Source: Nitrospirota bacterium (GTDB lineage Bacteria; Nitrospirota; Thermodesulfovibrionia; Thermodesulfovibrionales; JdFR-88). Taken from it: 64,000 bases of DNA. The notes under the pieces are model-generated. The model saw nothing but the letters and a program-made list of their open reading frames with translations. It did no database searches and had not been told where the DNA came from. The stretch covers positions 3,065 to 67,064 of the forward strand of contig JAJYIR010000010.1 of NCBI GenBank assembly GCA_021789935.1, given 5' to 3'. Both the position numbers and the translations under genes were made by a program. This document shows, in pieces, positions 2,921 to 12,672 of the stretch. Each line of letters starts with the position of its first letter. The first letter of the stretch is position 1.

Positions 2921-4261
2921 ATGGCGCTAACCGGAGTCGAAATTTTCAAGCTGTTGCCAAAAACCAACTGCAAGAAGTGCGGGCAGCCCACCTGCCTTGC
3001 CTTTGCCATGAAGCTTGCCCAGAGACAGGTTTCCCTCGATCAGTGCCCCGATGTCTCCGAGGAGTCGAAACAGAAGCTTGGCGAGGCCTCCGCGCCGCCT
3101 ATCAGGCCGGTAACGCTGGGCGCCGGAACCAGGGCTGTGAAGATGGGCGAGGAGACGGTCCTTTTCAGGCATGAAAAGAAGTTCGTGAACCCGTGCGCCT
3201 TCGCCGTCAAAATAGAGGATACGCTTTCCGAGGCTGATGCCGCAAAGAAGATAGACGAGGTGCTGGCTTCCGAGATAGACAGGGTCGGCCAGAAGCTGAG
3301 GGTGGACGCCATGTTCCTTTCAAACGATTCGGGAGATGCCGCAAAGCTTGAGGCGCTCGCCAAACTGGCTGCCCAAAAGGCCCCCGATGTGCCGGTAATA
3401 ATATCCACGGTGAACCCGGATGCGGCCGGGGCCGCCCTGGGCCATTTCAGCGGCAAGAACGCTGTGCTCTACGGCGCCAACGCCGGCAATCTGCCGGCGA
3501 TGGCTGAAAAAGCAAAGGCCGCGAAGGCCGCGCTGGGCATAGCCGCCAAAAACCTTGACGAGCTTTCGGATCTGACAGAGAAGGCCAAGGGCCTAGGCAT
3601 AGAGGATATGGTGATAGACTCCGGGGCGCGCAAGGCCGGAGAGATACTCAGGGACAACACCTACATAAGAAGGGCCGCCCTTAAAAAGGGAATCAAACAG
3701 GTTGGCTACCCCGTCATAAACTTTGCGGAGCGCGGGGACGAGATGCTGGAGAGCCTGGTTGCCGGGCTGGCAGTCAAAAAATACGGCTCCATTGTCGTGC
3801 TCGGCGCGGTCCGGAAATGGAAAGACCTTGTCCTCTTCTCGCTCAGGCAGAATATATACACGGACCCGCAGGTGCCTATGCAGGTCCAGCAGAAAGTATA
3901 CAAGATCGGGGAGCCGGGGCCGAAATCCCCCTTCCTTATTACGACGAACTTTTCTCTCACTTACTTTATAGTTTCCGGCGAGATAGAAAACTGCAAGGTG
4001 CCCTGCCGTCTTGCAGTAATGGACTCCGAGGGGCTTTCGGTCCTTACCGCATGGGCCGCGGGCAAGTTCACGGCTTCCAGGATATCCCAGTTTATAACCG
4101 AAAGCGGTATCGGGGAAGAGCTTGAACAGAAGGAGCTCATCATTCCGGGCTATGTTGCCATTCTTAGCGGAGCGATAGAGGACAAGCTGCCCGGCTGGAA
4201 GATAACTGTCGGCCCCAGGGAGGCAAACGGCTTGCCAGCGTTCCTGAAGGCCAGGGCGTAA
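2921..4261 (+). CDS. acsC: Corrinoid iron-sulfur protein large subunit (CdhE/AcsC family)
   Basis: 446 aa. N-terminal 4Fe-4S motif CKKCGQPTCLAF...QCP typical of AcsC, followed by a TIM-barrel/corrinoid-binding-like region. Confidence 0.85.
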   Translation: MALTGVEIFKLLPKTNCKKCGQPTCLAFAMKLAQRQVSLDQCPDVSEESKQKLGEASAPPIRPVTLGAGTRAVKMGEETVLFRHEKKFVNPCAFAVKIEDTLSEADAAKKIDEVLASEIDRVGQKLRVDAMFLSNDSGDAAKLEALAKLAAQKAPDVPVIISTVNPDAAGAALGHFSGKNAVLYGANAGNLPAMAEKAKAAKAALGIAAKNLDELSDLTEKAKGLGIEDMVIDSGARKAGEILRDNTYIRRAALKKGIKQVGYPVINFAERGDEMLESLVAGLAVKKYGSIVVLGAVRKWKDLVLFSLRQNIYTDPQVPMQVQQKVYKIGEPGPKSPFLITTNFSLTYFIVSGEIENCKVPCRLAVMDSEGLSVLTAWAAGKFTASRISQFITESGIGEELEQKELIIPGYVAILSGAIEDKLPGWKITVGPREANGLPAFLKARA

Positions 4262-4284
4262 TCCGTCTGATTTTCTGAAGGACA

Positions 4285-4301
4285 GTCCCCTTTTGGGGGA
4301 C
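4285..4301 (+). terminator. Stem-loop after acsC (possible attenuator/terminator, no U-tract)
   Basis: GTCCCC-TTTTG-GGGGAC hairpin 24 nt after the acsC stop, followed by about 290 nt of AT-rich non-coding DNA. Confidence 0.25.
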
Positions 4302-4590
4302 AAGTGAAGCCGGAACTGTTTGTATTTTTTATTTCAAGTTGTAGATTTGTTTATAAATTGGTAAATTATACGTTTAGCTTTAAGAATCTGTGGCGTAAAT
4401 CTTTAAAATAGTATCTCAGAAACCGAGCCGGAGACGGCGGTGCAGGCCTTTTTTGTTTTCGCATGAAAGAAAAAACTGCGGGGCCCGATCCGGCTTGCTT
4501 ATCCTGGAATCCATCAAACGCGTACAAAAAAACCTGACTAAATATTCCCTAGGTCATTTTTTTAAAGACGGAGGACAAAACAAAAAAATC

Positions 4591-5091
4591 ATGAAGATAG
4601 AAAATATTGACGTAGACGGCCATTACAGGGAAATAGGCGAAGTCCTCACGGACGAGCAGAAAAAAAGAGGGGTGCTCATTCATGCCCTTCAAAAGCTCCA
4701 GAAAGAGCATAATTACCTGCCTGAAGACAGGCTGAGGGCCCTTTCAAAGAAGCTGGACATCCCCCTTGCGGAAATATACAGCACAGCTTCCTTTTACAAG
4801 CATTTCTACTTCAAGCCCAGGGGCAAAAACATTGTCTGCGTTTGCACCGGAACGGCCTGCCACGTGCGGGGTGCCTCAAAGGTGCTCCAGCAGATAGAAG
4901 ACGAATTCGGGGTGAAAGAGGGGCAGACCACGGCCGACATGTCCCTGACGCTTGAGACCGTCGGATGTGTCGGGTGCTGCGGGCTGGCGCCGGTCGTGAC
5001 GGTAAACGATGAGGTAATCGGGGAGGCCGGCCCCAAAAAGGTAGGCGGGATAATAGATAAAGTCAGGGCCAGGGGCGGGGAGGACGAATAA
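4591..5091 (+). CDS. NuoE/HoxE/HndA-like thioredoxin-fold [2Fe-2S] subunit
   Basis: ATG at 4591 is preceded by the SD gacggagga; the track ORF from 4453 adds an implausible N-terminus. Motif CTGTAC...CVGCCGLAP (Cx4C...CxxxC) of the 24-kDa subunit family. Confidence 0.8.
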   Translation: MKIENIDVDGHYREIGEVLTDEQKKRGVLIHALQKLQKEHNYLPEDRLRALSKKLDIPLAEIYSTASFYKHFYFKPRGKNIVCVCTGTACHVRGASKVLQQIEDEFGVKEGQTTADMSLTLETVGCVGCCGLAPVVTVNDEVIGEAGPKKVGGIIDKVRARGGEDE

Positions 5092-5096
5092 AACCG

Positions 5097-7442
5097 ATGG
5101 GAACAAAAAGGCTGCAGAACATAGATGATTTAAAGGCGCTGAGGGCGAGGCTGGAGGCTGAGGTCTTCCAACCGGGACGGGCCAGGGCAAGGGTATGCTG
5201 CGGCACAGCCTGCACCGCCCTGGGCTCGCACAAGGTCATAAGCGCACTCGAAGAGGATGCCGGGAAAAGGGGCATTGATGTGGAGATAGTAAAGACCGGA
5301 TGCCAGGGCATGTGCCAGAAGGGCCCGGTCATGAAGGTGGAGCCGGAGGGCATCTTCTACCAGAGGGTTAAAGCCTGGCAGGTGCCGGACCTCGTAAGCT
5401 ATACGCTTGTGGGGAAGACGCCTTACAGGAACGCCCTTTACAGGAAGGACATACTCAGCGAGCCGATTGCTGACATGCTGGAGCTGCCTTTTTATAAAAA
5501 ACAGATGCGCATCGCGCTTCGCAACAATGACAAGATTGACCCCACGAACATCCTTCACTACATAGCGGTGGGCGGATACAAGGGGCTTGAAAAAGCGCTT
5601 TCCACCATGACCCCTGATGGCGTCATGGATGAGGTGGACGAGGCGAACCTGAGGGGCAGGGGCGGCGCCGGTTTCCCGGCGGGCAAAAAGTGGAGACACG
5701 CGAAAAGCGGCCCGGAGCACACGAAGTTTGTTATCGCAAACGGCGACGAGGGAGACCCGGGGGCCTTCATGGACCGCTCCATAATGGAGGGAGACCCGCA
5801 CAGCCTGTTTGAGGGGATGCTCCTTTGCGCCTACGCCATCGGCGCCAAATACGGGTTCGTGTACGTCAGGCACGAGTATCCGCTAGCGGTGAAGCACCTG
5901 AAGCACGCGATCTTCCAGGCTGAGGAACTTGGCCTGCTAGGCAACAATATCCTCGGCACGGCTTTCAGTTTTCATCTCGATGTGAGGGAAGGCGCCGGGG
6001 CCTTCGTATGCGGCGAATCAACTGCGCTTGTGGCCTCGATAGAGGGGGAGCGCGGGTTCCCGAGGCCTCGTCCCCCAAGGCTCTCTGAGCGGGGCGGCGG
6101 CGTGTGGGGTTACCCGAGCAACCTGAACAACATAGAGACATATGCATGCGTGGCGCCGATTATAGAGAAGGGGGCGGGCTGGTTCAGGAGCATAGGCACC
6201 GAGACCTCGCCGGGCACAAAAGTCTTCGCGCTTACCGGCAAGGTCAAGAACACAGGCCTCGTCGAGGTGCCGATGGGCATGACCCTGCGGGAGATAATAT
6301 ACGGCATCGGCGGGGGGATCATTGACGACAAGAAGTTGAAGGCAGTCCAGACCGGCGGGCCTTCCGGCGGCTGTCTGCCCGCGAGCTATCTGGACCTGAA
6401 GGTGGATTTTGACTCGCTCTGGAAGTCAGGCTCCATGATGGGCTCGGGCGGCATGGTCGTAATGGATGAGGACACCTGCATGGTGGACGTGGCCAAATAC
6501 TTTCTCTCCTTTACCCAGTCGGAATCCTGCGGCAAATGCCCTCCATGCAGGATCGGCACTTACCAGATGCTCCAGATACTGGAGAGGATAACGAAGGGGC
6601 AGGGAGAGATGGGCGACATAGAGAGGCTCATAAGCATAGGCCACATGGTACAGAAGGGCTCACTGTGCGGCCTTGGCCAGAGCGCGCCCAACCCGGTTTT
6701 AAGCACGATAAAGTATTTCAGGCAGGAATACGAGGAGCACATCTATGACAAATACTGCAGTGCCAAGGCCTGCAAGGGCATGGGCGTGTTCGCCATCAAC
6801 CTCACAGAGTGCATACGGTGCGGCCTGTGCAAGGAGGCCTGCGCCTATGGCGCCGTAAAAGAGGGCAAGGACAAGTTCTTCATAGACAGGGACGGCTGCC
6901 GGCAGTGCAAGGCCTGTTATGACGTCTGTCCCGTGGGCGCGGTCAAGATAAGGAAGCACAGCGTGGCCAGGCTGGAGGAACAGTTCAGGATCCCCGCGGA
7001 TAAGATAGAGATACTTGAAAGGAGGGTCAGCATGACGCTTAAAGACCTCGTAGAAGCAAAACCCGCCAAATTCGTTTCCTGCGGCGAAGATTGTCCCGTG
7101 ACCGATGCCGTCACGAAGATGGACGGCCAGAACGTCGGTTCCATACTGGTTTTCAATAACCGGCAGAAACTGGTGGGCATATTCACGGAGAGGGACATCA
7201 TGCACTGCTTTGCCAAGAACGTCCAGTTCAATCAGAAAACGATCAAGGACGTGATGTCGCAAAACCCTGTGACGCTCGATGCGGCCACGGACATAAGCGT
7301 GGCGGTCAGCCTCATGTCCGAAAGGAAGATAAGGCATCTTCCCGTGATGGAGAACGAAAAGATAATAGGCATCGTCTCCTACAGGGACCTGGTGTCCTAT
7401 ATGCTGCCTGAAATTATCTTCATGGCCGAAGACATCTACTAG
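5097..7442 (+). CDS. NuoF/HoxF/HydB-like FMN- and NAD(H)-binding flavoprotein, with N-terminal [2Fe-2S] domain, C-terminal 2x[4Fe-4S] ferredoxin domain and a terminal CBS pair
   Basis: 781 aa. GRGGAGFPAGKKW (FMN/NADH site); ESCGKCPPCRIG...LCGLGQSAPNP (N3 cluster); CIRCGLCKEAC and CRQCKACYDVCP (ferredoxin). Residues ~646-781 (nt 7032-7439) form two CBS-like repeats (VGIFTERDIMH..., IIGIVSYRDLVSY). Confidence 0.85.
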   Translation: MGTKRLQNIDDLKALRARLEAEVFQPGRARARVCCGTACTALGSHKVISALEEDAGKRGIDVEIVKTGCQGMCQKGPVMKVEPEGIFYQRVKAWQVPDLVSYTLVGKTPYRNALYRKDILSEPIADMLELPFYKKQMRIALRNNDKIDPTNILHYIAVGGYKGLEKALSTMTPDGVMDEVDEANLRGRGGAGFPAGKKWRHAKSGPEHTKFVIANGDEGDPGAFMDRSIMEGDPHSLFEGMLLCAYAIGAKYGFVYVRHEYPLAVKHLKHAIFQAEELGLLGNNILGTAFSFHLDVREGAGAFVCGESTALVASIEGERGFPRPRPPRLSERGGGVWGYPSNLNNIETYACVAPIIEKGAGWFRSIGTETSPGTKVFALTGKVKNTGLVEVPMGMTLREIIYGIGGGIIDDKKLKAVQTGGPSGGCLPASYLDLKVDFDSLWKSGSMMGSGGMVVMDEDTCMVDVAKYFLSFTQSESCGKCPPCRIGTYQMLQILERITKGQGEMGDIERLISIGHMVQKGSLCGLGQSAPNPVLSTIKYFRQEYEEHIYDKYCSAKACKGMGVFAINLTECIRCGLCKEACAYGAVKEGKDKFFIDRDGCRQCKACYDVCPVGAVKIRKHSVARLEEQFRIPADKIEILERRVSMTLKDLVEAKPAKFVSCGEDCPVTDAVTKMDGQNVGSILVFNNRQKLVGIFTERDIMHCFAKNVQFNQKTIKDVMSQNPVTLDAATDISVAVSLMSERKIRHLPVMENEKIIGIVSYRDLVSYMLPEIIFMAEDIY

Positions 7443-7454
7443 GGGTGATCTTTC

Positions 7455-8057
7455 ATGGATGAGAAGAAGGAACTGAAAGTTGAGGACATAAAGGCCGGCG
7501 CGCAGGCCCTGGGGTGCCCGGTGCAAAAGGCGCTCTATTACGTGGCGGGCTTTCTCGACGGCCCCATGTGCGGCAAGTGCTTCCCATGTTCCCTAGGGAT
7601 ATTCGAGGCCAAAAGAAGGCTGGAGAATATCGCGGAGGGGCGCGGCACCGGGGCGGACATAAGCGCACTTAAGCGGATAGCCGGACACATGCTTGAGGCC
7701 TCCATGTGCAGGAAGGGGAAGGACACGGCGCGTTTCATCATCGAGTGGATGGAGGACGGCGCGTTTTCCGCACACGCGTTTTTTTCTTCCGGCGCGGCGG
7801 GCAGGTGCCCGGGAAAGCAATGTTCGGGGCTCATAGAGTTCAGGGTCGTCCCGGAGAAATGCGAGAGGTGCGGCCTTTGCAAAGACGCATGCACGCATGG
7901 CTCCATATTCGGAGAGAAGAGAAAACCGTACCTCACGGGTTATCCGCCCTTTGAGATAAGGCAAAAAAGATGCGTGAAATGCGGCGTCTGCCTGCGGGCA
8001 TGTCCCGCCGGCGCGATAGAGATCGCGGACGCGGCCACTGAACTTTTAAAGGCCTGA
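7455..8057 (+). CDS. Small Fe-S protein: stand-alone NuoF-C-terminal (N3-type 4Fe-4S) domain fused to a 2x[4Fe-4S] ferredoxin domain
   Basis: 200 aa. MCGKCFPCSLG...SMCRKG mirrors the CGKCxPCRxG...LCGLG cluster-N3 motif of NuoF. Followed by CERCGLCKDAC and CVKCGVCLRACP. Confidence 0.7.
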   Translation: MDEKKELKVEDIKAGAQALGCPVQKALYYVAGFLDGPMCGKCFPCSLGIFEAKRRLENIAEGRGTGADISALKRIAGHMLEASMCRKGKDTARFIIEWMEDGAFSAHAFFSSGAAGRCPGKQCSGLIEFRVVPEKCERCGLCKDACTHGSIFGEKRKPYLTGYPPFEIRQKRCVKCGVCLRACPAGAIEIADAATELLKA

Positions 8058-8124
8058 AAAAGATTTTTTGATTTTTTTACCCGGTTTTTAAGGAAATCAA
8101 GCTCGAATCAGGAGGAGTCCGCTC

Positions 8125-10203
8125 ATGTCGGAAAAGATCGAGGAAAATATTACAGGAAAAAAGTCTGGAACCATAAAAGTAAAGATAAACGGCAGGGAGA
8201 CGGAGGTGCCGGAGGGCGCGAACCTTATCCAGGCCGCGGAGCTTGCCGGCGTGCACATACCGAACCTCTGCTATCTCAAGGGAATGAAGGGCATCGGCGC
8301 CTGCAGGCTCTGTCTGGTCGAGGTCGAGGGCATGAAGGCGCCCCTTACCGCCTGCACCACCAGAGCCAAAGACGGCATGGCGATTACCACGAGCAACGAA
8401 AAGATTGACGAGGTCAGGAAGTTCGTGATAGACCTTATCCTCTCGATGCACCCCCTGGACTGCATGACCTGCACCAAGGCCGGCGTGTGCAGCCTTCAGG
8501 AATATGCCTATGAAATGGGAATCAAAGAGTCCTCCTTCACCAGAAAGAAACAGGGCTATGCGGCGGACGATGCAAACCCGTTCATAAAAAGGGACCCCGA
8601 ATATTGCGTCCTTTGCGGCAAGTGCGTAAGGGTCTGCAAAAGCCAGGGCACAAACGTGCTGGAATTCATGGGCAGGGGTGTGGGCTCAAAGGTCATAACG
8701 GCTGAAGACAGGCCGCTGCAGGAGTCCGGATGCACGTTCTGCGGAAGCTGCGCGGATGTGTGCCCGGTAAACGCGCTTCTTGATGCCGGCATGTGGCGCA
8801 AGGGAAGAGAATGGGATTTTGAGGGCGTCAATTCGACATGCCTGCTTTGCGGCAACAGCTGCGATATAACTGTAAGCACAAAAGACGGCAGGGTCATGAA
8901 GGTAAACGCCGGCCCGAATTACGGCCCGGCGGAGCGGTACATCTGCGCGTACGGAAGATACGGGTTCGATTGCATCGAGGCGGACTCCAGGATAACCGCA
9001 CCCATGAAGCGCGTGGACGGTGAGCTTAAGGAGACAACATGGAAGGACGCCATCCAAACGGCCGCAGACAGGCTGAAGGCCGCTGGCAAGGACGCGGGCT
9101 TCATAGCCACCGCCGGTTTGCTCAATGAAGACGCCCTGGCGCTTAAAAGATTGGCGGAGGGGGCCGGTATATCCAATGCCGATACGACGGCAAGCCTGTA
9201 CTCCACCGCAGAGACGCTTATGTCGGACAGCGCGGACAGCCTTGAATCCGCCGATCTCTTCGTGGTCGTAGACCTGTATCCCGACCAATGGAAAAGGGTG
9301 CTGCCCGGAATTGACGCGGCGATAAGAAAGAGGCTGGAGGCGGGGGCCGGGCTCGTTGTCATCAACAGACGGGAGTCCTCGCTTTCCGCAGTCGCGGCGG
9401 TAAACCTGGCTGGCAGCGAGGCGGATTCCCTGAAATCCTTCGCGCAGGCACTGATCGGCACAGGTCTGAACGGGGCCAGGGAGCTTTTTTCCTCCGCAGT
9501 CTCCGGCGTGGCCGCAGACGAGGATGCAGGGAAGGCCGCGGACCTGTTTGCCAAGGCCAAAAACCCGGTCGTTCTGTCCTCACCGGGCATGTATTTTGCG
9601 GCCGCGAACCTGGGCCTGCTCAAGGGCACGGCCGTTTCGGTCCCGGCAGAGAGCAACGCAAAGGGCATTGCGGCCATAGGCCTGCGCGGGGCCGGAAAGT
9701 CTTATGAAGAGATGGTCTCCGGCGGCGTCATGGCGCTTTATGCCGTTGGCGAGGTGCCTGTCAATGAGCGCCCCCGGACTGGCTTCCTCATTGTCCAGGG
9801 CTCACATATGACGGAGCTTGCCAGGCAGGCGGATGTGGTGCTTCCCTCTGCGGCATACCTTGAGGCTGACGGGACCATAGTCGATTATCTTGGAAGGCCC
9901 AGAAAGGTTTGCAAAGCCGCTGAGCCCGCGGGCGTTGCGAAGCCCCACCGGACGATATTTGCACAGGTGGCGGAGGCAATGGGGCTGGATATAAAAGGGT
10001 CCTGCGCCGGACTTTCGGAGGCAGAGAAAAATCCCGCCTCCGCTGCCCGGACGGCCAAAAAATTCAGGCCCTTTGAGCGCATGGCCTTCGATCATATGGA
10101 GGGTTTCGATATGACGCCGAAGGAGATGATGGAGGCCATGAACGCCGCGGTAATAAACGGCTCCAGGCTCCTTTGGCTCAAGGAAGCGAAGACCAGGGCA
10201 TAA
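8125..10203 (+). CDS. NuoG/HoxU-like Fe-S subunit with a truncated, apparently non-catalytic molybdopterin-oxidoreductase-like domain
   Basis: 692 aa. N-terminal [2Fe-2S] (GACRLCLVEV), His-ligated cluster motif HPLDCMTCTKAGVC, CVLCGKCVRVC, CTFCGSCADVCP, MopB-type CLLCGNSCD. Where formate dehydrogenases carry (Sec/Cys)-His, the sequence reads ISNADTTASLYS. Confidence 0.75.
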   Translation: MSEKIEENITGKKSGTIKVKINGRETEVPEGANLIQAAELAGVHIPNLCYLKGMKGIGACRLCLVEVEGMKAPLTACTTRAKDGMAITTSNEKIDEVRKFVIDLILSMHPLDCMTCTKAGVCSLQEYAYEMGIKESSFTRKKQGYAADDANPFIKRDPEYCVLCGKCVRVCKSQGTNVLEFMGRGVGSKVITAEDRPLQESGCTFCGSCADVCPVNALLDAGMWRKGREWDFEGVNSTCLLCGNSCDITVSTKDGRVMKVNAGPNYGPAERYICAYGRYGFDCIEADSRITAPMKRVDGELKETTWKDAIQTAADRLKAAGKDAGFIATAGLLNEDALALKRLAEGAGISNADTTASLYSTAETLMSDSADSLESADLFVVVDLYPDQWKRVLPGIDAAIRKRLEAGAGLVVINRRESSLSAVAAVNLAGSEADSLKSFAQALIGTGLNGARELFSSAVSGVAADEDAGKAADLFAKAKNPVVLSSPGMYFAAANLGLLKGTAVSVPAESNAKGIAAIGLRGAGKSYEEMVSGGVMALYAVGEVPVNERPRTGFLIVQGSHMTELARQADVVLPSAAYLEADGTIVDYLGRPRKVCKAAEPAGVAKPHRTIFAQVAEAMGLDIKGSCAGLSEAEKNPASAARTAKKFRPFERMAFDHMEGFDMTPKEMMEAMNAAVINGSRLLWLKEAKTRA

Positions 10204-10219
10204 GAATTTTGATTTTTTT

Positions 10220-10249
10220 AATCCGCCCCCGTTTACCCGGGGGCGGATT
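10220..10249 (+). terminator. Strong GC-rich hairpin between the nuoG-like gene and acsB
   Basis: AATCCGCCCCC-(gtttaccc)-GGGGGCGGATT, an 11-bp perfect stem starting 17 nt after the stop. It is flanked by a T-run on the 5' side and an A-rich run on the 3' side, so it is not a textbook + strand intrinsic terminator. Confidence 0.45.
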
Positions 10250-10473
10250 AAATAAAAATCCCATTGAATTTTTCCCCGCCGCCCTCTCCGCGCGTGTGAA
10301 ATACTATTTTTTTTTCTTATTTGTCCATAAGCAGGAATTAGTCACTTTCTTTTTCTGTTATATAATAATAGCTTGGTAAAAAGTTGATTTAGAAAGAAAG
10401 GCTTTTGTAAAATAGATACAATCTGGATGTGGTATCTAATTCCTGTCGAGGATAGAAGGAGGTCGGGGGCAAT

Positions 10474-12672
10474 ATGTCCAAGATAATCGCCACAGCGGCG
10501 ATAAGAGGCGCCAACCGGTTATACAGAGAAGCCGAGGAGTTGCTTGAAAAGGCGATAGCTGAAAAAGGTGAGGGGCACCAGTTTGAATTTGTTGACACCG
10601 CTTTCTATCTTCCTATGATATACGCGATGACAGGCTTTCCGGTTAAGACGCTTGGGGACATGCGGACCGCCCTGGGGTTTGCACGGAAGCTTTTGCATGA
10701 GGAACCCTCGGACCATGTATGGAAGCCGTACCTGGGCGAGGCCCTGGATTCCGGAATGGCCAGCCTTTTTGCCGAGGAGATATGGCTTGCGGCAAGGACC
10801 GTCCTTGGGCTTGAGCCATCCGTTGATCCCGAAACGGGGTATGTCTACAACGGGTTTATAACCGACACCATACAGAGGAACCTGGGCATTCAGCTTGTTG
10901 ACGGCACGATGCCCGGTTTTGCGGCCATCATCGGCGCTGCGCCGGATGACGATACGGCCGTCAAGATAGTCTCCGAACTCCAGGAGAAGAACATCCTCAC
11001 ATTCCTTTCCGGCCATGTCAACGGAAACAGCGTAACCAAACAGCTTTTAAGGAAGGGCGTTGAGCTCGGCTGGGACACAAGGATCGTCCCTCTTGGGCCT
11101 GACACCCGGCACACCCTTTATGCGCTGGACTGGGCAATAAGGGCCTCCCTCATCTTCGGCGGCAAAAAGCCCGGGGATTACAAGGAGCACCTGAAATACC
11201 AGAAGGACAGGGTGTTTGCATTTGCCATGGTGCTTGGAGAGCTTGACGACATAATATGGACAACCGGGGCCGGGGCCATAAACATGGGCTTCCCGGCCGT
11301 TGCCGATACCGATATCCCGGTTGTGCATCCGACCGGCGTTTGCATCTATGAGGAAGTTGACAAGGAATTCGACCACAAGAAGATAGTCCAGAAGGCGATA
11401 GAGGTGAGGGGATTAAAGATCGTGGTTGAGAAGCCCCCGATACCGGTCTCTTACGGCCCGGCCTTCGAAGGAGAGAGGATACGCAAGGAGGACATGTTCA
11501 TAGAGTTCGGGGGCCAGAAGACCCCTGCCTTTGAATGGGTCCGCATGCGTGAGATGGAAGAGGTCGAGGACGGCAAGATCACCATCATCGGCGAAAACTG
11601 GAAAGAGCTCTATGAAAAGGGCGGCAGGATGCCCCTCGGGCTCGTGATAGATGTGGCCGGCAGGAAGATGCAGAAGGACTTCGAGTCTGTCATTGAAAGA
11701 AAAGTGCACCATAGCATAAACGAGGCACAGGGGCTCTGGCACATGGGCCAGAGGGACTTGAACTGGATAAGGATAAGCAACGCGGCAAAGGGAGCAGGCA
11801 TAACCCTGGAACACCTCGGGCAGATATTTTCCACCATGATGAGGCATACGTTCCGTTCCATCATAGACAAGGTGCAGGTCACCATCTATACGGATGAGAA
11901 GGAAGTCCTTGCGGTGAGGGACGAGGCCAGAAAGGCCTATACCGAGAGGGACAAGCGGCTTGGTTCGATGACTGACGAGTCGGTGGAGACTTTTTATTCC
12001 TGCCTTTTGTGCCAGAGCTTCGCCCCAAGCCACGTATGCATCATAACCGCGGAAAGGCTTGGCCTCTGCGGGGCGTACAACTGGCTGGACGCCAGGGCGG
12101 CCTTTGAGATAGACCCCACCGGCGGCAACCAGCCGGTTCCGAAAGGGCAGTTGCTGGACCCGAGATACGGCCGCTACACGGGCGTTGATGAATACCTTAA
12201 AAAATCCACCGGCGGCGCGGTGGAGTCCCTGAACCTGTACACGATAATGGAAAACCCGATGACTTCCTGCGGCTGCTTCGAGTGCATCATAGCCATAGTG
12301 CCGGAGGCAAACGGGGTCATGATAGTGCAAAGGGGGCACCAGGGAATGACGCCTGCCGGAATGAAGTTTTCCACCCTGGCCGGCTCCGTCGGAGGCGGCA
12401 TGCAGACCCCGGGTTTTATGGGCATAGGCAGGAACTTCATCACAAGTAAAAAGTTCCTTGCCGGAGACGGCGGCATAAAGAGGATAGTCTGGATGACCAA
12501 AAACCTCAAAGAAAGCCTGAAGGAGTCCTTCGATGCCAGGGCCGCCGAAGAGGGCGTGCCAGGGCTTCTGGACATGATAGCGGATGAGACCGCGGCTGAG
12601 GATTCCGAAAAGCTCTTGGAATATCTTTCAGGTACGGGGCATCCGGCGCTTGGGATGGACCCGATGATATAA
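10474..12672 (+). CDS. acsB: Acetyl-CoA synthase catalytic subunit (ACS, AcsB/CdhC)
   Basis: 732 aa, colinear by eye with Moorella ACS alpha (FYSCLLCQSFAPSHVCIITAERLGLCGA, LYTIMENPMTSCGCFECI, MQTPGFMGIGR, GHPALGMDPMI C-terminus). Confidence 0.9.
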   Translation: MSKIIATAAIRGANRLYREAEELLEKAIAEKGEGHQFEFVDTAFYLPMIYAMTGFPVKTLGDMRTALGFARKLLHEEPSDHVWKPYLGEALDSGMASLFAEEIWLAARTVLGLEPSVDPETGYVYNGFITDTIQRNLGIQLVDGTMPGFAAIIGAAPDDDTAVKIVSELQEKNILTFLSGHVNGNSVTKQLLRKGVELGWDTRIVPLGPDTRHTLYALDWAIRASLIFGGKKPGDYKEHLKYQKDRVFAFAMVLGELDDIIWTTGAGAINMGFPAVADTDIPVVHPTGVCIYEEVDKEFDHKKIVQKAIEVRGLKIVVEKPPIPVSYGPAFEGERIRKEDMFIEFGGQKTPAFEWVRMREMEEVEDGKITIIGENWKELYEKGGRMPLGLVIDVAGRKMQKDFESVIERKVHHSINEAQGLWHMGQRDLNWIRISNAAKGAGITLEHLGQIFSTMMRHTFRSIIDKVQVTIYTDEKEVLAVRDEARKAYTERDKRLGSMTDESVETFYSCLLCQSFAPSHVCIITAERLGLCGAYNWLDARAAFEIDPTGGNQPVPKGQLLDPRYGRYTGVDEYLKKSTGGAVESLNLYTIMENPMTSCGCFECIIAIVPEANGVMIVQRGHQGMTPAGMKFSTLAGSVGGGMQTPGFMGIGRNFITSKKFLAGDGGIKRIVWMTKNLKESLKESFDARAAEEGVPGLLDMIADETAAEDSEKLLEYLSGTGHPALGMDPMI

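What the first reader, a model, noticed from the sequence alone, without database searches (positions are those of the whole stretch)
7032..7442. CBS-domain pair fused to the C-terminus of the NuoF-like flavoprotein
After the NuoF core and a 2x[4Fe-4S] ferredoxin domain, the last ~136 residues form two CBS-type repeats: ...VTDAVTKMDGQNVGSILVFNNRQKLVGIFTERDIMH... and ...VAVSLMSERKIRHLPVMENEKIIGIVSYRDLVSY....

CBS pairs usually bind adenosyl ligands (AMP/ATP/SAM and similar) and act as allosteric sensors. I do not know of this fusion on NADH-dehydrogenase-type flavoproteins. It would couple the energy or adenylate state directly to an electron-input module sitting inside a Wood-Ljungdahl cluster.
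Basis: partly seen in the sequence, partly recalled or inferred. Interest (0 to 1): 0.55.

Follow-up and report, generated by a model that had tools for sequence, protein, structure and literature searches.

The report
CBS sensor tail on bifurcating-type flavoprotein
The NADH-binding subunit of an iron-sulfur enzyme module inside this bacterium's CO2-fixation (Wood-Ljungdahl) gene cluster really does carry a built-in CBS "ligand sensor" tail, a conserved but unstudied design that may let a small metabolite switch the module's electron flow.

Summary
ORF 5097-7442 (781 aa) is one open frame. It holds a HydB/BfuB-type flavoprotein: an N-terminal [2Fe-2S] domain, the FMN/NADH core, the N3 cluster and a 2x[4Fe-4S] ferredoxin-like domain. 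A 25-residue helical linker and a CBS pair (residues 646-781; Pfam E 2e-25) follow. Independent contigs from four metagenome runs cross the junction without indels.

The fusion is not unique. An open frame continuous with NuoF holds the tail in 59 of 201 sampled genomes of the class (titles of related records: Nitrospirota, Thermodesulfovibrionia). Elsewhere the same CBS gene is absent, split off, or moved within the module. In seven loci it is the free first gene of a paralogous NuoEFG-type operon; the one read in full is a selenocysteine formate dehydrogenase.

The CBS1 ribose-binding motif (GIFTERD) is invariant; the CBS2 counterpart is nearly so. The nearest solved structures are free CBS pairs, two of them reported with bound NAD+. 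A Shine-Dalgarno sequence plus ATG at the junction is conserved at synonymous sites, so a free CBS protein may also be made.

Most likely this is an adenosyl-ligand sensor tethered behind the ferredoxin-docking domain. The ligand and its effect are untested. I found no paper on it. This scan noted the same fusion earlier in other genomes.

The parts
5097..7442 (+). Whole gene: BfuB/HydB-type flavoprotein with a C-terminal CBS pair (781 aa, P0001)
   Evidence: Single ORF. Pfam domains. 45-63% identity over the aligned stretch to solved BfuB chains, which cover query residues 28-619 only.
5172..5396 (+). N-terminal thioredoxin-like [2Fe-2S] domain (residues 26-100), with Cys34, Cys39, Cys69 and Cys73
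   Evidence: PF01257, partial match. The four Cys are invariant in 59 fused homologues.
5634..6740 (+). NuoF core: FMN/NADH domain (180-353), SLBB (376-425) and the N3 [4Fe-4S] helical domain (464-548)
   Evidence: PF01512 E 6.6e-40, PF10531, PF10589 E 1.4e-33.
6795..6947 (+). C-terminal ferredoxin-like 2x[4Fe-4S] domain (residues 567-617). This is the ferredoxin-reducing domain in solved Bfu enzymes.
   Evidence: Fer4 families. Eight invariant Cys: 572, 575, 578, 582, 601, 604, 607, 611. Role of this domain in NfnB: PMC12018979.
6954..7031 (+). Conserved two-helix linker (residues 620-645, consensus ..LEEQF.IP..KIE.LERRA.)
   Evidence: AF2 helices 621-630 and 634-643, pLDDT about 68-77. Conserved in fused forms; orthologues without CBS end 3-17 codons after the ferredoxin domain.
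7017..7034 (+). Internal Shine-Dalgarno-like GAA AGG AGG (AGGAGG at 7020-7025), a 6-nt spacer, and the in-frame ATG of Met646 (7032-7034)
   Evidence: RGGAG-N5-9-ATG stands at this site in 36 of 37 distinct fused ORFs. Third-position entropy is 0.53 and 0.00 bits for GAA and AGG, against 1.1-1.97 bits in neighbouring codons.
7059..7214 (+). CBS motif 1 (about residues 655-706), with the invariant G694-I-F-T-E-R-D700
   Evidence: Pfam CBS, two stretches. AF2 secondary structure. Invariant columns.
7242..7403 (+). CBS motif 2 (residues 716-769), with R746-H747-L-P749 and G758-I-V-S-Y-R-D764
   Evidence: Best Pfam CBS stretch 716-769. Invariant R746, H747, P749, Y762, R763.
4453..5091 (+). Upstream partner: NuoE/BfuC-like [2Fe-2S] subunit. 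The start is uncertain; homology begins near codon 47.
   Evidence: PF01257 E 5e-46. Adjacent to the NuoF orthologue in nearly all fetched loci of the CODH/ACS-linked module; exceptions are one contig without module neighbours, L041, and one with a CBS gene between them, L077.
7455..8057 (+). Downstream partner: small Fe-S protein (N3-like domain plus 2x[4Fe-4S])
   Evidence: Pfam. Conserved position in the module.
8125..10203 (+). Downstream partner: NuoG/BfuA-like Fe-S subunit with a molybdopterin-type domain
   Evidence: Pfam and NCBIfam. Conserved position.

Best explanation
The gene encodes the B subunit (HydB/BfuB type) of a NuoE/NuoF/NuoG-like, Bfu-family NADH/ferredoxin module that belongs to the CODH/ACS cluster. 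This subunit has acquired a regulatory CBS pair (Bateman module). The pair is tethered by a short helical linker directly behind the C-terminal 2x[4Fe-4S] domain. In solved Bfu enzymes that domain is where ferredoxin docks and where conformational gating takes place.

The CBS pair most likely binds an adenosyl compound (AMP/ADP/ATP or NAD(H)) in the cleft lined by the invariant GIFTERD and RH.P motifs. By changing conformation or pairing with a second CBS pair, it would then open or restrict the low-potential (ferredoxin) branch. That would tie electron flow into or out of the Wood-Ljungdahl enzymes to the cell's energy or redox state.

Shown here: the architecture, its conservation, the constraint on the ligand-site motifs, and the repeated genetic linkage of this CBS subfamily to NuoEFG-type modules. 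Inferred: ligand binding, ligand identity, and the gating effect.
For: The frame is continuous, and Pfam CBS scores E 2.1e-25. Both AF2 models are confident (mean pLDDT 84 and 89). The nearest folds are free CBS pairs 3FHM, 2RC3 and 4FRY, at TM 0.81-0.92 and rmsd 1.4-2.4 A.

The fused frame occurs in 59 of 201 sampled genomes of the class (my count), and more than 120 database clusters hold it.

Invariant residues fall in the canonical ribose/phosphate-binding positions: G694, T697, E698, R699, D700, R746, H747, P749, Y762, R763. This holds in 59 fused sequences, and the core motifs are also invariant in 36 further database CBS sequences, mostly 136 aa.

The same CBS subfamily stays with NuoEFG-type modules in every arrangement seen:
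- fused to NuoF;
- split by a stop codon (L049);
- an adjacent gene (L051);
- after the nuoG-like gene (L052);
- between nuoE and nuoF (L077);
- a free gene 59-64% identical lying directly upstream of a paralogous NuoE-NuoF-NuoG-like operon (co-oriented first gene in six loci: L067, L068, L087-L089, L091; divergent neighbour in L066). Read in full only in L067, where it is a selenocysteine formate dehydrogenase followed by a cNMP-binding gene and fhs.

The core is 45-63% identical over the aligned stretch to solved bifurcating BfuB chains. [quoted passage not shown] PDB 2RC3 and 4FRY are reported to hold NAD+ (preprint 10.1101/2020.07.07.192161).
Against: No ligand binding or activity has been measured for this protein or for any close relative. 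Many close orthologues (70-80% identical cores) lack the tail, and their genomes have no close free copy. The tail is therefore dispensable for the module's basic function.

On the NuoF-core tree the fused state needs at least 7 well-supported changes, so it is gained or lost easily. Some CBS pairs serve mainly for dimerisation. The AF2 monomer model says nothing about where the tail sits in the complex, and linker confidence is only moderate (pLDDT 68-77). Whether this module bifurcates at all is itself unproven.
Confidence: 0.6

Rival explanations
1. The gene has two products. The conserved internal Shine-Dalgarno sequence and ATG at Met646 drive separate translation of a free 136-aa CBS protein alongside the full-length fusion. 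The free copy would pair with the tethered CBS pair, or act in trans on other NuoEFG-type modules. This extends the best explanation rather than excluding it.
For: AGGAGG-N6-ATG lies at 7020-7034. RGGAG-N5-9-ATG, in frame, stands at this position in 36 of 37 distinct fused ORFs and recurs in only a few of them at any other single position. The first Arg codon is AGG in all 35 ORFs that have Arg there, and GGG (Gly) in two more, so the GGAG core is kept in 36 of 37; AGG is only about 50% of Arg codons in these ORFs. Where the residue changes (ERS, EGR) the GGAG core is kept. Third-position entropy is 0.00 and 0.53 bits here, against 1.1-1.97 bits in flanking codons. Genes in this cluster use GGAGG-type ribosome-binding sites. 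Free CBS genes whose product aligns from Met646 exist: the split and relocated forms L049, L051, L052 and L077, and the free genes next to a paralogous NuoEFG operon, L066-L068 and L087-L091. Free copies nest among fused tails in the CBS tree.
Against: There are no proteomic or ribosome-profiling data. The sequences are related, so counts overstate independence. E-R-R is itself a conserved peptide, and AGG is the commonest Arg codon. Many of the 136-aa database entries sit on very short contigs and may be truncated gene calls rather than real free genes. Internal SD-like sequences could instead be a relic of the ancestral gene boundary or a site of translational pausing.
Confidence: 0.4
2. The CBS pair is purely structural. 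It would be a dimerisation or docking domain that holds two BfuB protomers together, or holds the module to CODH/ACS, with no ligand sensing.
For: CBS pairs commonly form dimers (established knowledge of Bateman modules). Bfu enzymes are oligomers of ABC units (PMC12018979, discusses the oligomer interfaces). The tail is dispensable in many orthologues.
Against: The invariant residues are those of the canonical ligand-binding motifs (GIFTERD, RH.P, SYRD), not a surface patch. The closest solved homologues were crystallised with nucleotides. The free paralogue beside the FDH operon keeps the same motifs.
Confidence: 0.2
3. The fusion is an artefact: a missed stop or frameshift, so that the CBS pair is really a separate gene in this genome.
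For: Split forms do exist in relatives: an in-frame TAA in G138/L049 and a separate frame in G155/L051. A strong ribosome-binding site precedes Met646.
Against: The window has no stop in frame. Contigs from four runs cross the junction with no indel. The continuous frame stands in 59 of 201 sampled genomes, and in database clusters drawn from several sources.
Confidence: 0.02

Closest known systems
BfuB/HydB subunits of electron-bifurcating Bfu-family enzymes. Solved examples: NiFe-HydABCSL 7T2R/7T30; HydABC 7Q4V, 8A6T, 7P5H; NfnABC/StnABC 9BP5, 9N5U, 8OH5; WorABCSL 9MQX.
   Same: Same domain order: an N-terminal [2Fe-2S] domain, the FMN/NADH core, the N3 cluster and a C-terminal 2x[4Fe-4S] domain. 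Identity over the aligned stretch is 45-63%, with E down to 4e-219 and TM (target-normalised) 0.84-0.94. NuoE-like and NuoG-like partner genes lie alongside.
   Different: All solved chains end at query residue about 616-619; none has the linker plus CBS pair. The 2022 survey of the family does not mention CBS (PMC9304861, 0 occurrences). This module also has an extra small Fe-S subunit, and its NuoG-like subunit has no obvious catalytic partner domain.
Free two-CBS proteins NE2398 (PDB 2RC3), Atu1752 (3FHM) and the Burkholderia ambifaria protein (4FRY)
   Same: Same size and a co-linear CBS pair. Identity is 26-33%, TM 0.81-0.92 and rmsd 1.4-2.4 A. They share the G-h-h-T-E-R-D and R-H-L-P-V motifs (alignment). 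2RC3 and 4FRY are reported with NAD+ bound.
   Different: They are stand-alone structural-genomics targets of unknown function from Proteobacteria, not attached to or encoded beside a redox enzyme. The window's subfamily (at least 52% identity) was found only in records titled Nitrospirae/Nitrospirota, Thermodesulfovibrio or its order and class, or 'Bacterium'.
Predicted 'Codh-Bfu' enzymes (Schut et al. 2022, PMC9304861)
   Same: A BfuABC-type module encoded together with a Ni-CODH. The authors propose that it couples CO/CO2 to NAD and ferredoxin.
   Different: They are described only in Firmicutes (BfuB clade 49), with CODH genes between bfuB and bfuA and no ACS or CBS. Here the module belongs to a full acs cluster in Nitrospirota and carries the CBS tail. 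Whether it falls in that clade was not tested.
Classical CBS-regulated enzymes and transporters (IMP dehydrogenase, CBS-pyrophosphatase, KpsF/GutQ isomerases, OpuA/ProV, MgtE)
   Same: A Bateman module appended to a catalytic or transport core. The NCBIfam and PDB hits to the tail are the CBS parts of these proteins.
   Different: None of them is an Fe-S flavoprotein of the NuoF family. The similarity is confined to the CBS pair.

Membership tests
CBS pair / Bateman module (Pfam PF00571 x2) | Two tandem CBS motifs that pass the curated profile threshold | tested here: met
   PF00571 scores 89.2 bits against a cut-off of 24, E 2.1e-25, two stretches. The tail alone gives the same kind of hits in NCBIfam.
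CBS pair / Bateman module (Pfam PF00571 x2) | The beta-alpha-beta-beta-alpha fold repeated twice, superposable on solved CBS pairs | tested here: met
   AF2 pLDDT is 88.9 for the tail and gives the expected secondary structure. Foldseek matches 2RC3, 3FHM and 4FRY at E 1e-11 to 1e-14 and TM 0.81-0.92.
CBS pair / Bateman module (Pfam PF00571 x2) | Ribose-binding motif G-h-h-(S/T)-x-x-(D/N) at the beta3/alpha2 junction of each motif | tested here: met
   G694-I-F-T-E-R-D700 is invariant. In G758-I-V-S-Y-R-D764, Y762 and R763 are invariant and G758 and D764 are at least 90% conserved.
CBS pair / Bateman module (Pfam PF00571 x2) | Binding of an adenosyl ligand and a resulting change in the attached protein | not testable with these tools
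   This needs ITC or thermal shift on the tail, and activity assays of the module.
BfuB/HydB subunit of the Bfu (HydABC-type) electron-bifurcating family | NuoF-type FMN/NADH domain plus the N3 [4Fe-4S] cluster | tested here: met
   PF01512, PF10531 and PF10589. C478, C481, C484 and C524 are invariant.
BfuB/HydB subunit of the Bfu (HydABC-type) electron-bifurcating family | Extra N-terminal [2Fe-2S] domain and extra C-terminal 2x[4Fe-4S] ferredoxin-like domain, both absent from respiratory NuoF | tested here: met
   PF01257 at residues 26-100, with four invariant Cys. Fer4 x2 at residues 567-617, with eight invariant Cys. Full-length alignment to solved BfuB chains covers residues 28-619.
BfuB/HydB subunit of the Bfu (HydABC-type) electron-bifurcating family | Encoded with BfuC (NuoE-like) and BfuA (NuoG-like) partners | tested here: met
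   The nuoE-like gene lies at 4453-5091 and the nuoG-like gene at 8125-10203. The order is conserved in nearly all fetched loci of the CODH/ACS-linked module that reach both flanks.
BfuB/HydB subunit of the Bfu (HydABC-type) electron-bifurcating family | Flavin-based electron bifurcation between NAD(H), ferredoxin and a third substrate | not testable with these tools
   This needs biochemistry. The third substrate of this module is unknown.
Respiratory complex I subunit NuoF (TIGR01959 equivalog) | Score above NCBI's equivalog cut-off, and membership of a nuoA-N operon | tested here: not met
   TIGR01959 scores 451.3 bits against a cut-off of 558.65. The neighbours are acs and CODH genes, not membrane nuo genes. 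Four other NuoF-like paralogues lie elsewhere in the genome.
Predicted Codh-Bfu type (Schut et al. 2022) | BfuB in clade 49, CODH genes between bfuB and bfuA, found in Firmicutes | not tested
   Only the shared proximity to CODH was seen. Gene order and phylum differ. No tree with the paper's clades was built.

The most novel reading that the evidence does not exclude
One gene makes two proteins: a BfuB-CBS fusion and, from a selectively maintained internal ribosome-binding site, a free CBS-pair protein. Together they would form a nucleotide-sensing (NAD(H) or adenylate) switch that gates ferredoxin access in the Bfu-type redox modules of the Wood-Ljungdahl pathway. In relatives that carry the free copy, the switch would act on both the CODH/ACS-linked module and the selenocysteine formate dehydrogenase. 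To my knowledge no allosteric control device has been described for this enzyme family, so this would be the first.
Probability: 0.25. Interest if true: 0.7.

Novelty: new variant of a known kind. Interest (0 to 1): 0.5.

Why it matters
Bfu-type flavoproteins set the balance between NADH and low-potential ferredoxin in anaerobes. Their gating is currently explained only by substrate-induced movements around the ferredoxin-docking domain. A ligand-sensing CBS module attached exactly there, or encoded as a separate subunit of a second Wood-Ljungdahl redox module, would be a simple, testable case of metabolite control of such an enzyme. It would also show how uncultured sulfate-reducer-type Nitrospirota tune carbon fixation or acetate oxidation.

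Nature has already supplied the comparison set. Closely related genomes carry the tail fused, split, relocated or absent, which makes comparative biochemistry straightforward. The conserved internal start site is also a clean candidate for a two-product bacterial gene.

Tried and rejected
I obtained the contexts of the 136-aa database proteins through the genome search, the fetch from genomes and the search for related loci instead.

- Literature searches for CBS together with NuoF, Wood-Ljungdahl, bifurcation or NADH dehydrogenase found nothing relevant. The Bfu family survey has no mention of CBS. This covers open-access papers and preprints only.

- I looked for the fusion outside the clade. 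At the 50%-identity representative level, I Pfam-scanned ten of the longer proteins among the 150 best NuoF relatives and none carries CBS; only the clade's own representative (P0018) does. Others carry GltD-like, response-regulator, extra-N3 or NuoE extensions. Among 80 genome loci found with the CBS profile, CBS homologues outside Nitrospirota (29-42% identity) have no NuoF neighbour. These are samples, not proof of absence.

- NCBIfam has no model above its cut-off for the protein or the tail.

- The ESM Atlas returned only the protein's own cluster and ordinary NuoF clusters, and holds no structure for it.

- No RNA holder is listed among the sequencing runs, so nothing can be said about expression.

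- An assembly artefact or frameshift is rejected.

- I could not determine where the tail docks in the complex.

- I did not resolve whether fused or free is the ancestral state. The trees show many changes but no direction.
Full report
**1. What is in the sequence**

ORF 5097..7442 on the + strand is one uninterrupted frame of 781 codons. Pfam finds these domains, in order:
- a partial thioredoxin-like [2Fe-2S] domain (residues 26-100);
- the NuoF FMN/NADH domain (180-353);
- SLBB (376-425);
- the NuoF N3 [4Fe-4S] domain (464-548);
- a 2x[4Fe-4S] ferredoxin domain (567-617);
- two CBS stretches (89.2 bits against a cut-off of 24, E 2.1e-25; best stretch 716-769).

Met646 is encoded at 7032-7034 and the stop codon is at 7440-7442.

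AlphaFold2 with 59 homologues gives mean pLDDT 84 and pTM 0.81. The tail forms two beta-alpha-beta-beta-alpha units, preceded by two linker helices (621-630 and 634-643) of moderate confidence. The tail modelled alone reaches pLDDT 88.9. Its best structural matches are free CBS pairs 3FHM, 2RC3 and 4FRY, at TM 0.81-0.92 and rmsd 1.4-2.4 A.

Contigs assembled independently from four metagenome runs cross the junction with no insertion or deletion. The runs come from one study of mine drainage and tailings and may include the source sample.

**2. What the core is**

The core is not a respiratory NuoF. The respiratory equivalog model TIGR01959 scores below its cut-off (451 against 559 bits). The neighbours are acsE, acsD, acsC, a nuoE-like gene, this gene, a small Fe-S protein, a nuoG-like gene, acsB and CODH.

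By sequence and fold, the best matches are B subunits of solved electron-bifurcating Bfu enzymes: NiFe-HydABCSL, three HydABC hydrogenases, NfnABC/StnABC and the tungsten aldehyde oxidoreductase. E-values reach 4e-219 and identity over the aligned stretch is 45-63%. All alignments stop at query residue 616-619, so no solved relative has the tail.

The genome holds four other NuoF-like paralogues. None of them has a CBS tail.

**3. How widespread the fusion is**

A search with residues 560-781 returned 387 proteins. The best 120 are almost all about 779 aa, all carry PF00571 together with the NuoF families, and where named they come from Nitrospirae, Nitrospiraceae or Thermodesulfovibrionales MAGs. 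NCBI often names them simply 'CBS domain-containing protein'.

In a sample of 201 genomes of the window's class, 69 have a close homologue of the tail. By my count of the listed matches, 59 genomes (the window's included) hold it in an open frame of at least 640 codons continuous with NuoF.

Many other genomes of the class have an orthologue whose core is 70-80% identical but which ends 3-17 codons after the ferredoxin domain. Those genomes have no close CBS copy anywhere.

At the 50%-identity representative level, I Pfam-scanned ten of the longer proteins among the 150 best NuoF relatives, and none carries CBS; only the clade's own representative (P0018) does. Other long relatives carry GltD-like, response-regulator, duplicated-N3 or NuoE extensions instead.

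**4. Gene context and the many states of the CBS gene**

I fetched 40 loci and mapped the window's proteins onto them. The nuoE/nuoF/small-FeS/nuoG-like module is a regular part of the acs cluster across the class. It usually lies after CODH. In the window and in G046 it lies between acsC and acsB.

The CBS pair occurs in these states:
- fused to NuoF (most loci);
- absent;
- separated by an in-frame TAA (G138, L049);
- an adjacent gene in another frame (G155, L051);
- after the nuoG-like gene (G124, L052);
- between nuoE and nuoF (G164, L077);
- duplicated (G186, L050);
- within a triplicated nuoF array (G092, L065).

In seven loci (L066-L068, L087-L089, L091) a free CBS gene 55-64% identical to the window's tail lies directly upstream of a different NuoE-NuoF-NuoG operon, as its co-oriented first gene in six loci and as a divergent neighbour in L066. 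The NuoF there is 50-52% identical to the window's. I read the alpha subunit in full only in L067. There it is a complete Mo/W formate dehydrogenase with an in-frame TGA at the catalytic position, followed by a cNMP-binding protein and formate-THF ligase.

This CBS subfamily is therefore tied again and again to NuoEFG-type redox modules, two of them belonging to the Wood-Ljungdahl pathway in the loci I read. It is covalently attached in one and a separate subunit in the other.

A tree of 64 NuoF cores needs 11 changes of the fused state, at least 7 of them forced by well-supported branches. The sample was chosen to include unfused forms, so these are not frequencies. In the CBS tree, free copies nest among fused tails and two CBS clades are visible. 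Some pairs are mosaic: G082's tail is 85% identical to the window's, while its core is only 75% identical and sits elsewhere in the core tree.

Beyond this clade, the nearest homologues (29-42% identity) are the widespread free ~140-aa CBS-pair proteins of many phyla. None of those fetched has a NuoF neighbour.

**5. Signs of function in the tail**

Across 59 fused sequences the invariant tail residues are M675, G694, T697, E698, R699, D700, M720, A736, R746, H747, P749, Y762, R763 and P771. The motifs G-I-F-T-E-R-D, H-x-P (R nearly invariant) and Y-R are also invariant or nearly so in 36 further database CBS sequences, mostly 136 aa.

These are the positions of the canonical CBS ribose/phosphate-binding motif G-h-h-S/T-x-x-D/N and of the basic beta-2 strand (established knowledge of CBS domains). 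That pattern argues for a ligand site under selection rather than a mere spacer.

The closest solved, co-linear homologues are 2RC3 (E 5.5e-17), 3FHM and 4FRY. A preprint that surveyed NAD+ conformers in the PDB lists 2RC3 and 4FRY among CBS proteins holding NAD+ (10.1101/2020.07.07.192161). A pyridine-nucleotide ligand is therefore as plausible as AMP/ATP. I could not test either.

**6. Where the tail is attached**

[quoted passage not shown] Ferredoxin is reduced at the NfnB C-terminal (ferredoxin-like) domain (PMC12018979). PDB titles for Thermotoga HydABC also record 'bridge' up and closed states.

In the window's protein the CBS pair follows that very domain after a 25-residue conserved helical linker. 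The linker is present only in fused forms.

The simplest mechanism is that ligand-dependent rearrangement or pairing of the CBS module restrains or frees the ferredoxin-docking region, and so tunes the low-potential branch. This step is inference.

**7. An internal start site**

The codons before Met646 read GAA AGG AGG GTC AGC ATG. That is AGGAGG, a 6-nt spacer and then ATG (7020-7034).

- In 36 of 37 distinct fused ORFs an RGGAG core lies 5-9 nt upstream of this in-frame ATG. No other position in these ~780-codon ORFs shows the pattern in more than a few of them.
- The first Arg codon is AGG in all 35 ORFs with Arg at that position, and GGG (Gly) in two more, so the GGAG core is kept in 36 of 37. 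AGG makes up only about half of the Arg codons in these genes. Where the second residue changes to Ser, or the first to Gly, the GGAG core is kept.
- Third-position entropy is 0.53 and 0.00 bits for GAA and AGG, against 1.1-1.97 bits for flanking codons.
- Cluster genes in the window use GGAGG-type ribosome-binding sites.
- The products of the free CBS genes I checked in fetched loci align from this Met. Many 136-aa database entries do too, but those on very short contigs may be truncated gene calls.

I read this as nucleotide-level selection for an internal ribosome-binding site, so a free CBS protein is probably made as well. The alternatives are a relic of the former gene boundary, or codon bias on a conserved E-R-R peptide. 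These cannot be excluded without protein data, and the sequences are related, so the counts are not independent.

**8. Comparison with what is known, and novelty**

CBS pairs as regulatory modules on enzymes are textbook. The Bfu family is well described. The combination is annotated in databases, but I found no discussion of it in the open literature searched. The family survey by Schut et al. does not mention CBS, and it describes a predicted 'Codh-Bfu' only in Firmicutes, with a different gene order. No NCBIfam model covers the architecture.

This scan noted the same fusion earlier in other genomes (e1-2077366, e1-2572545, e1-5026355). I found those notes after my own analysis, and they agree with it.

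I class the finding as a new variant of a known kind. It is real and conserved in one class, with a plausible but untested regulatory role and an interesting, testable internal start site.

**9. Limits**

No ligand, activity or expression data exist; no RNA holder is listed. The position of the tail in the complex is unknown.

Noticed in passing
window 7017-7034, and the same site in L009-L048: An internal Shine-Dalgarno sequence (AGGAGG) plus an in-frame ATG sits at the NuoF/CBS junction. It is conserved at synonymous positions in 36 of 37 fused orthologues. This suggests a second, free CBS product from the same gene.
   Followed up: yes
L067:8075-16088 (G160); also L066, L068, L087-L089, L091: A free CBS-pair gene, 55-64% identical to the window's tail, lies directly upstream of a paralogous nuoE-nuoF-nuoG-like operon in seven loci (divergent in L066, co-oriented in the rest). 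Read in full only in L067: the alpha subunit has an in-frame TGA at L067:12042-12044 in the ..CARY-U-HS.. context (selenocysteine formate dehydrogenase), a cNMP-binding protein and formate-THF ligase follow, and a CHASE2-adenylate/guanylate cyclase gene lies upstream.
   Followed up: partly
L065:5123-11591 (G092): Three tandem nuoF paralogues lie inside one acs cluster. The first has a full CBS tail, the second has a partial CBS remnant after it, and the third has none.
   Followed up: no
P0151, P0122, P0196: Other NuoF/HydB relatives carry different C-terminal additions: a response-regulator receiver domain (P0151), a second copy of the N3 [4Fe-4S] domain (P0122) and a fused NuoE-type 2Fe-2S domain (P0196). 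The C-terminus of this subunit seems to be a hot spot for accessory domains.
   Followed up: no
window 7083-7097 (residues 663-667), and alignments A1 and A2: A C-x3-C pair (SCGEDC here; TCKTTC or TCKKDC in relatives) stands at the start of CBS motif 1 in one of the two CBS clades and is missing in the other. Cys704 (MHCFAK) is at least 90% conserved. A thiol or redox role is conceivable but was not examined.
   Followed up: no
window 2921-12672, compared with L039, L053 and others: The position of the nuoE-F-smFeS-G module differs among relatives. It lies between acsC and acsB in the window and in G046 (L054), but after the CODH gene in most other genomes. The cluster has therefore been rearranged.
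   Followed up: partly
L016/L053 (G082) compared with the window: Mosaic history. G082's CBS tail is 85% identical to the window's, although its NuoF core is only 75% identical and branches elsewhere in the core tree. This suggests the tail was exchanged or converted independently of the core.
   Followed up: partly
P0320 compared with L012/L054 (G046:C10): A 136-aa protein named by NCBI as coming from an 'Actinomycetota bacterium' sits on a contig of 123,874 bases and begins with the same residues as the tail of G046's continuous 790-codon frame; G046:C10 is also 123,874 bases long. The record may have a gene call from the internal start, and possibly a wrong taxonomic label.
   Followed up: no
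window 4453-5091: The nuoE-like ORF is listed from a TTG at 4453, but homology to relatives starts near codon 47 (MKIENID...). The true start is probably the ATG near 4588.
   Followed up: no
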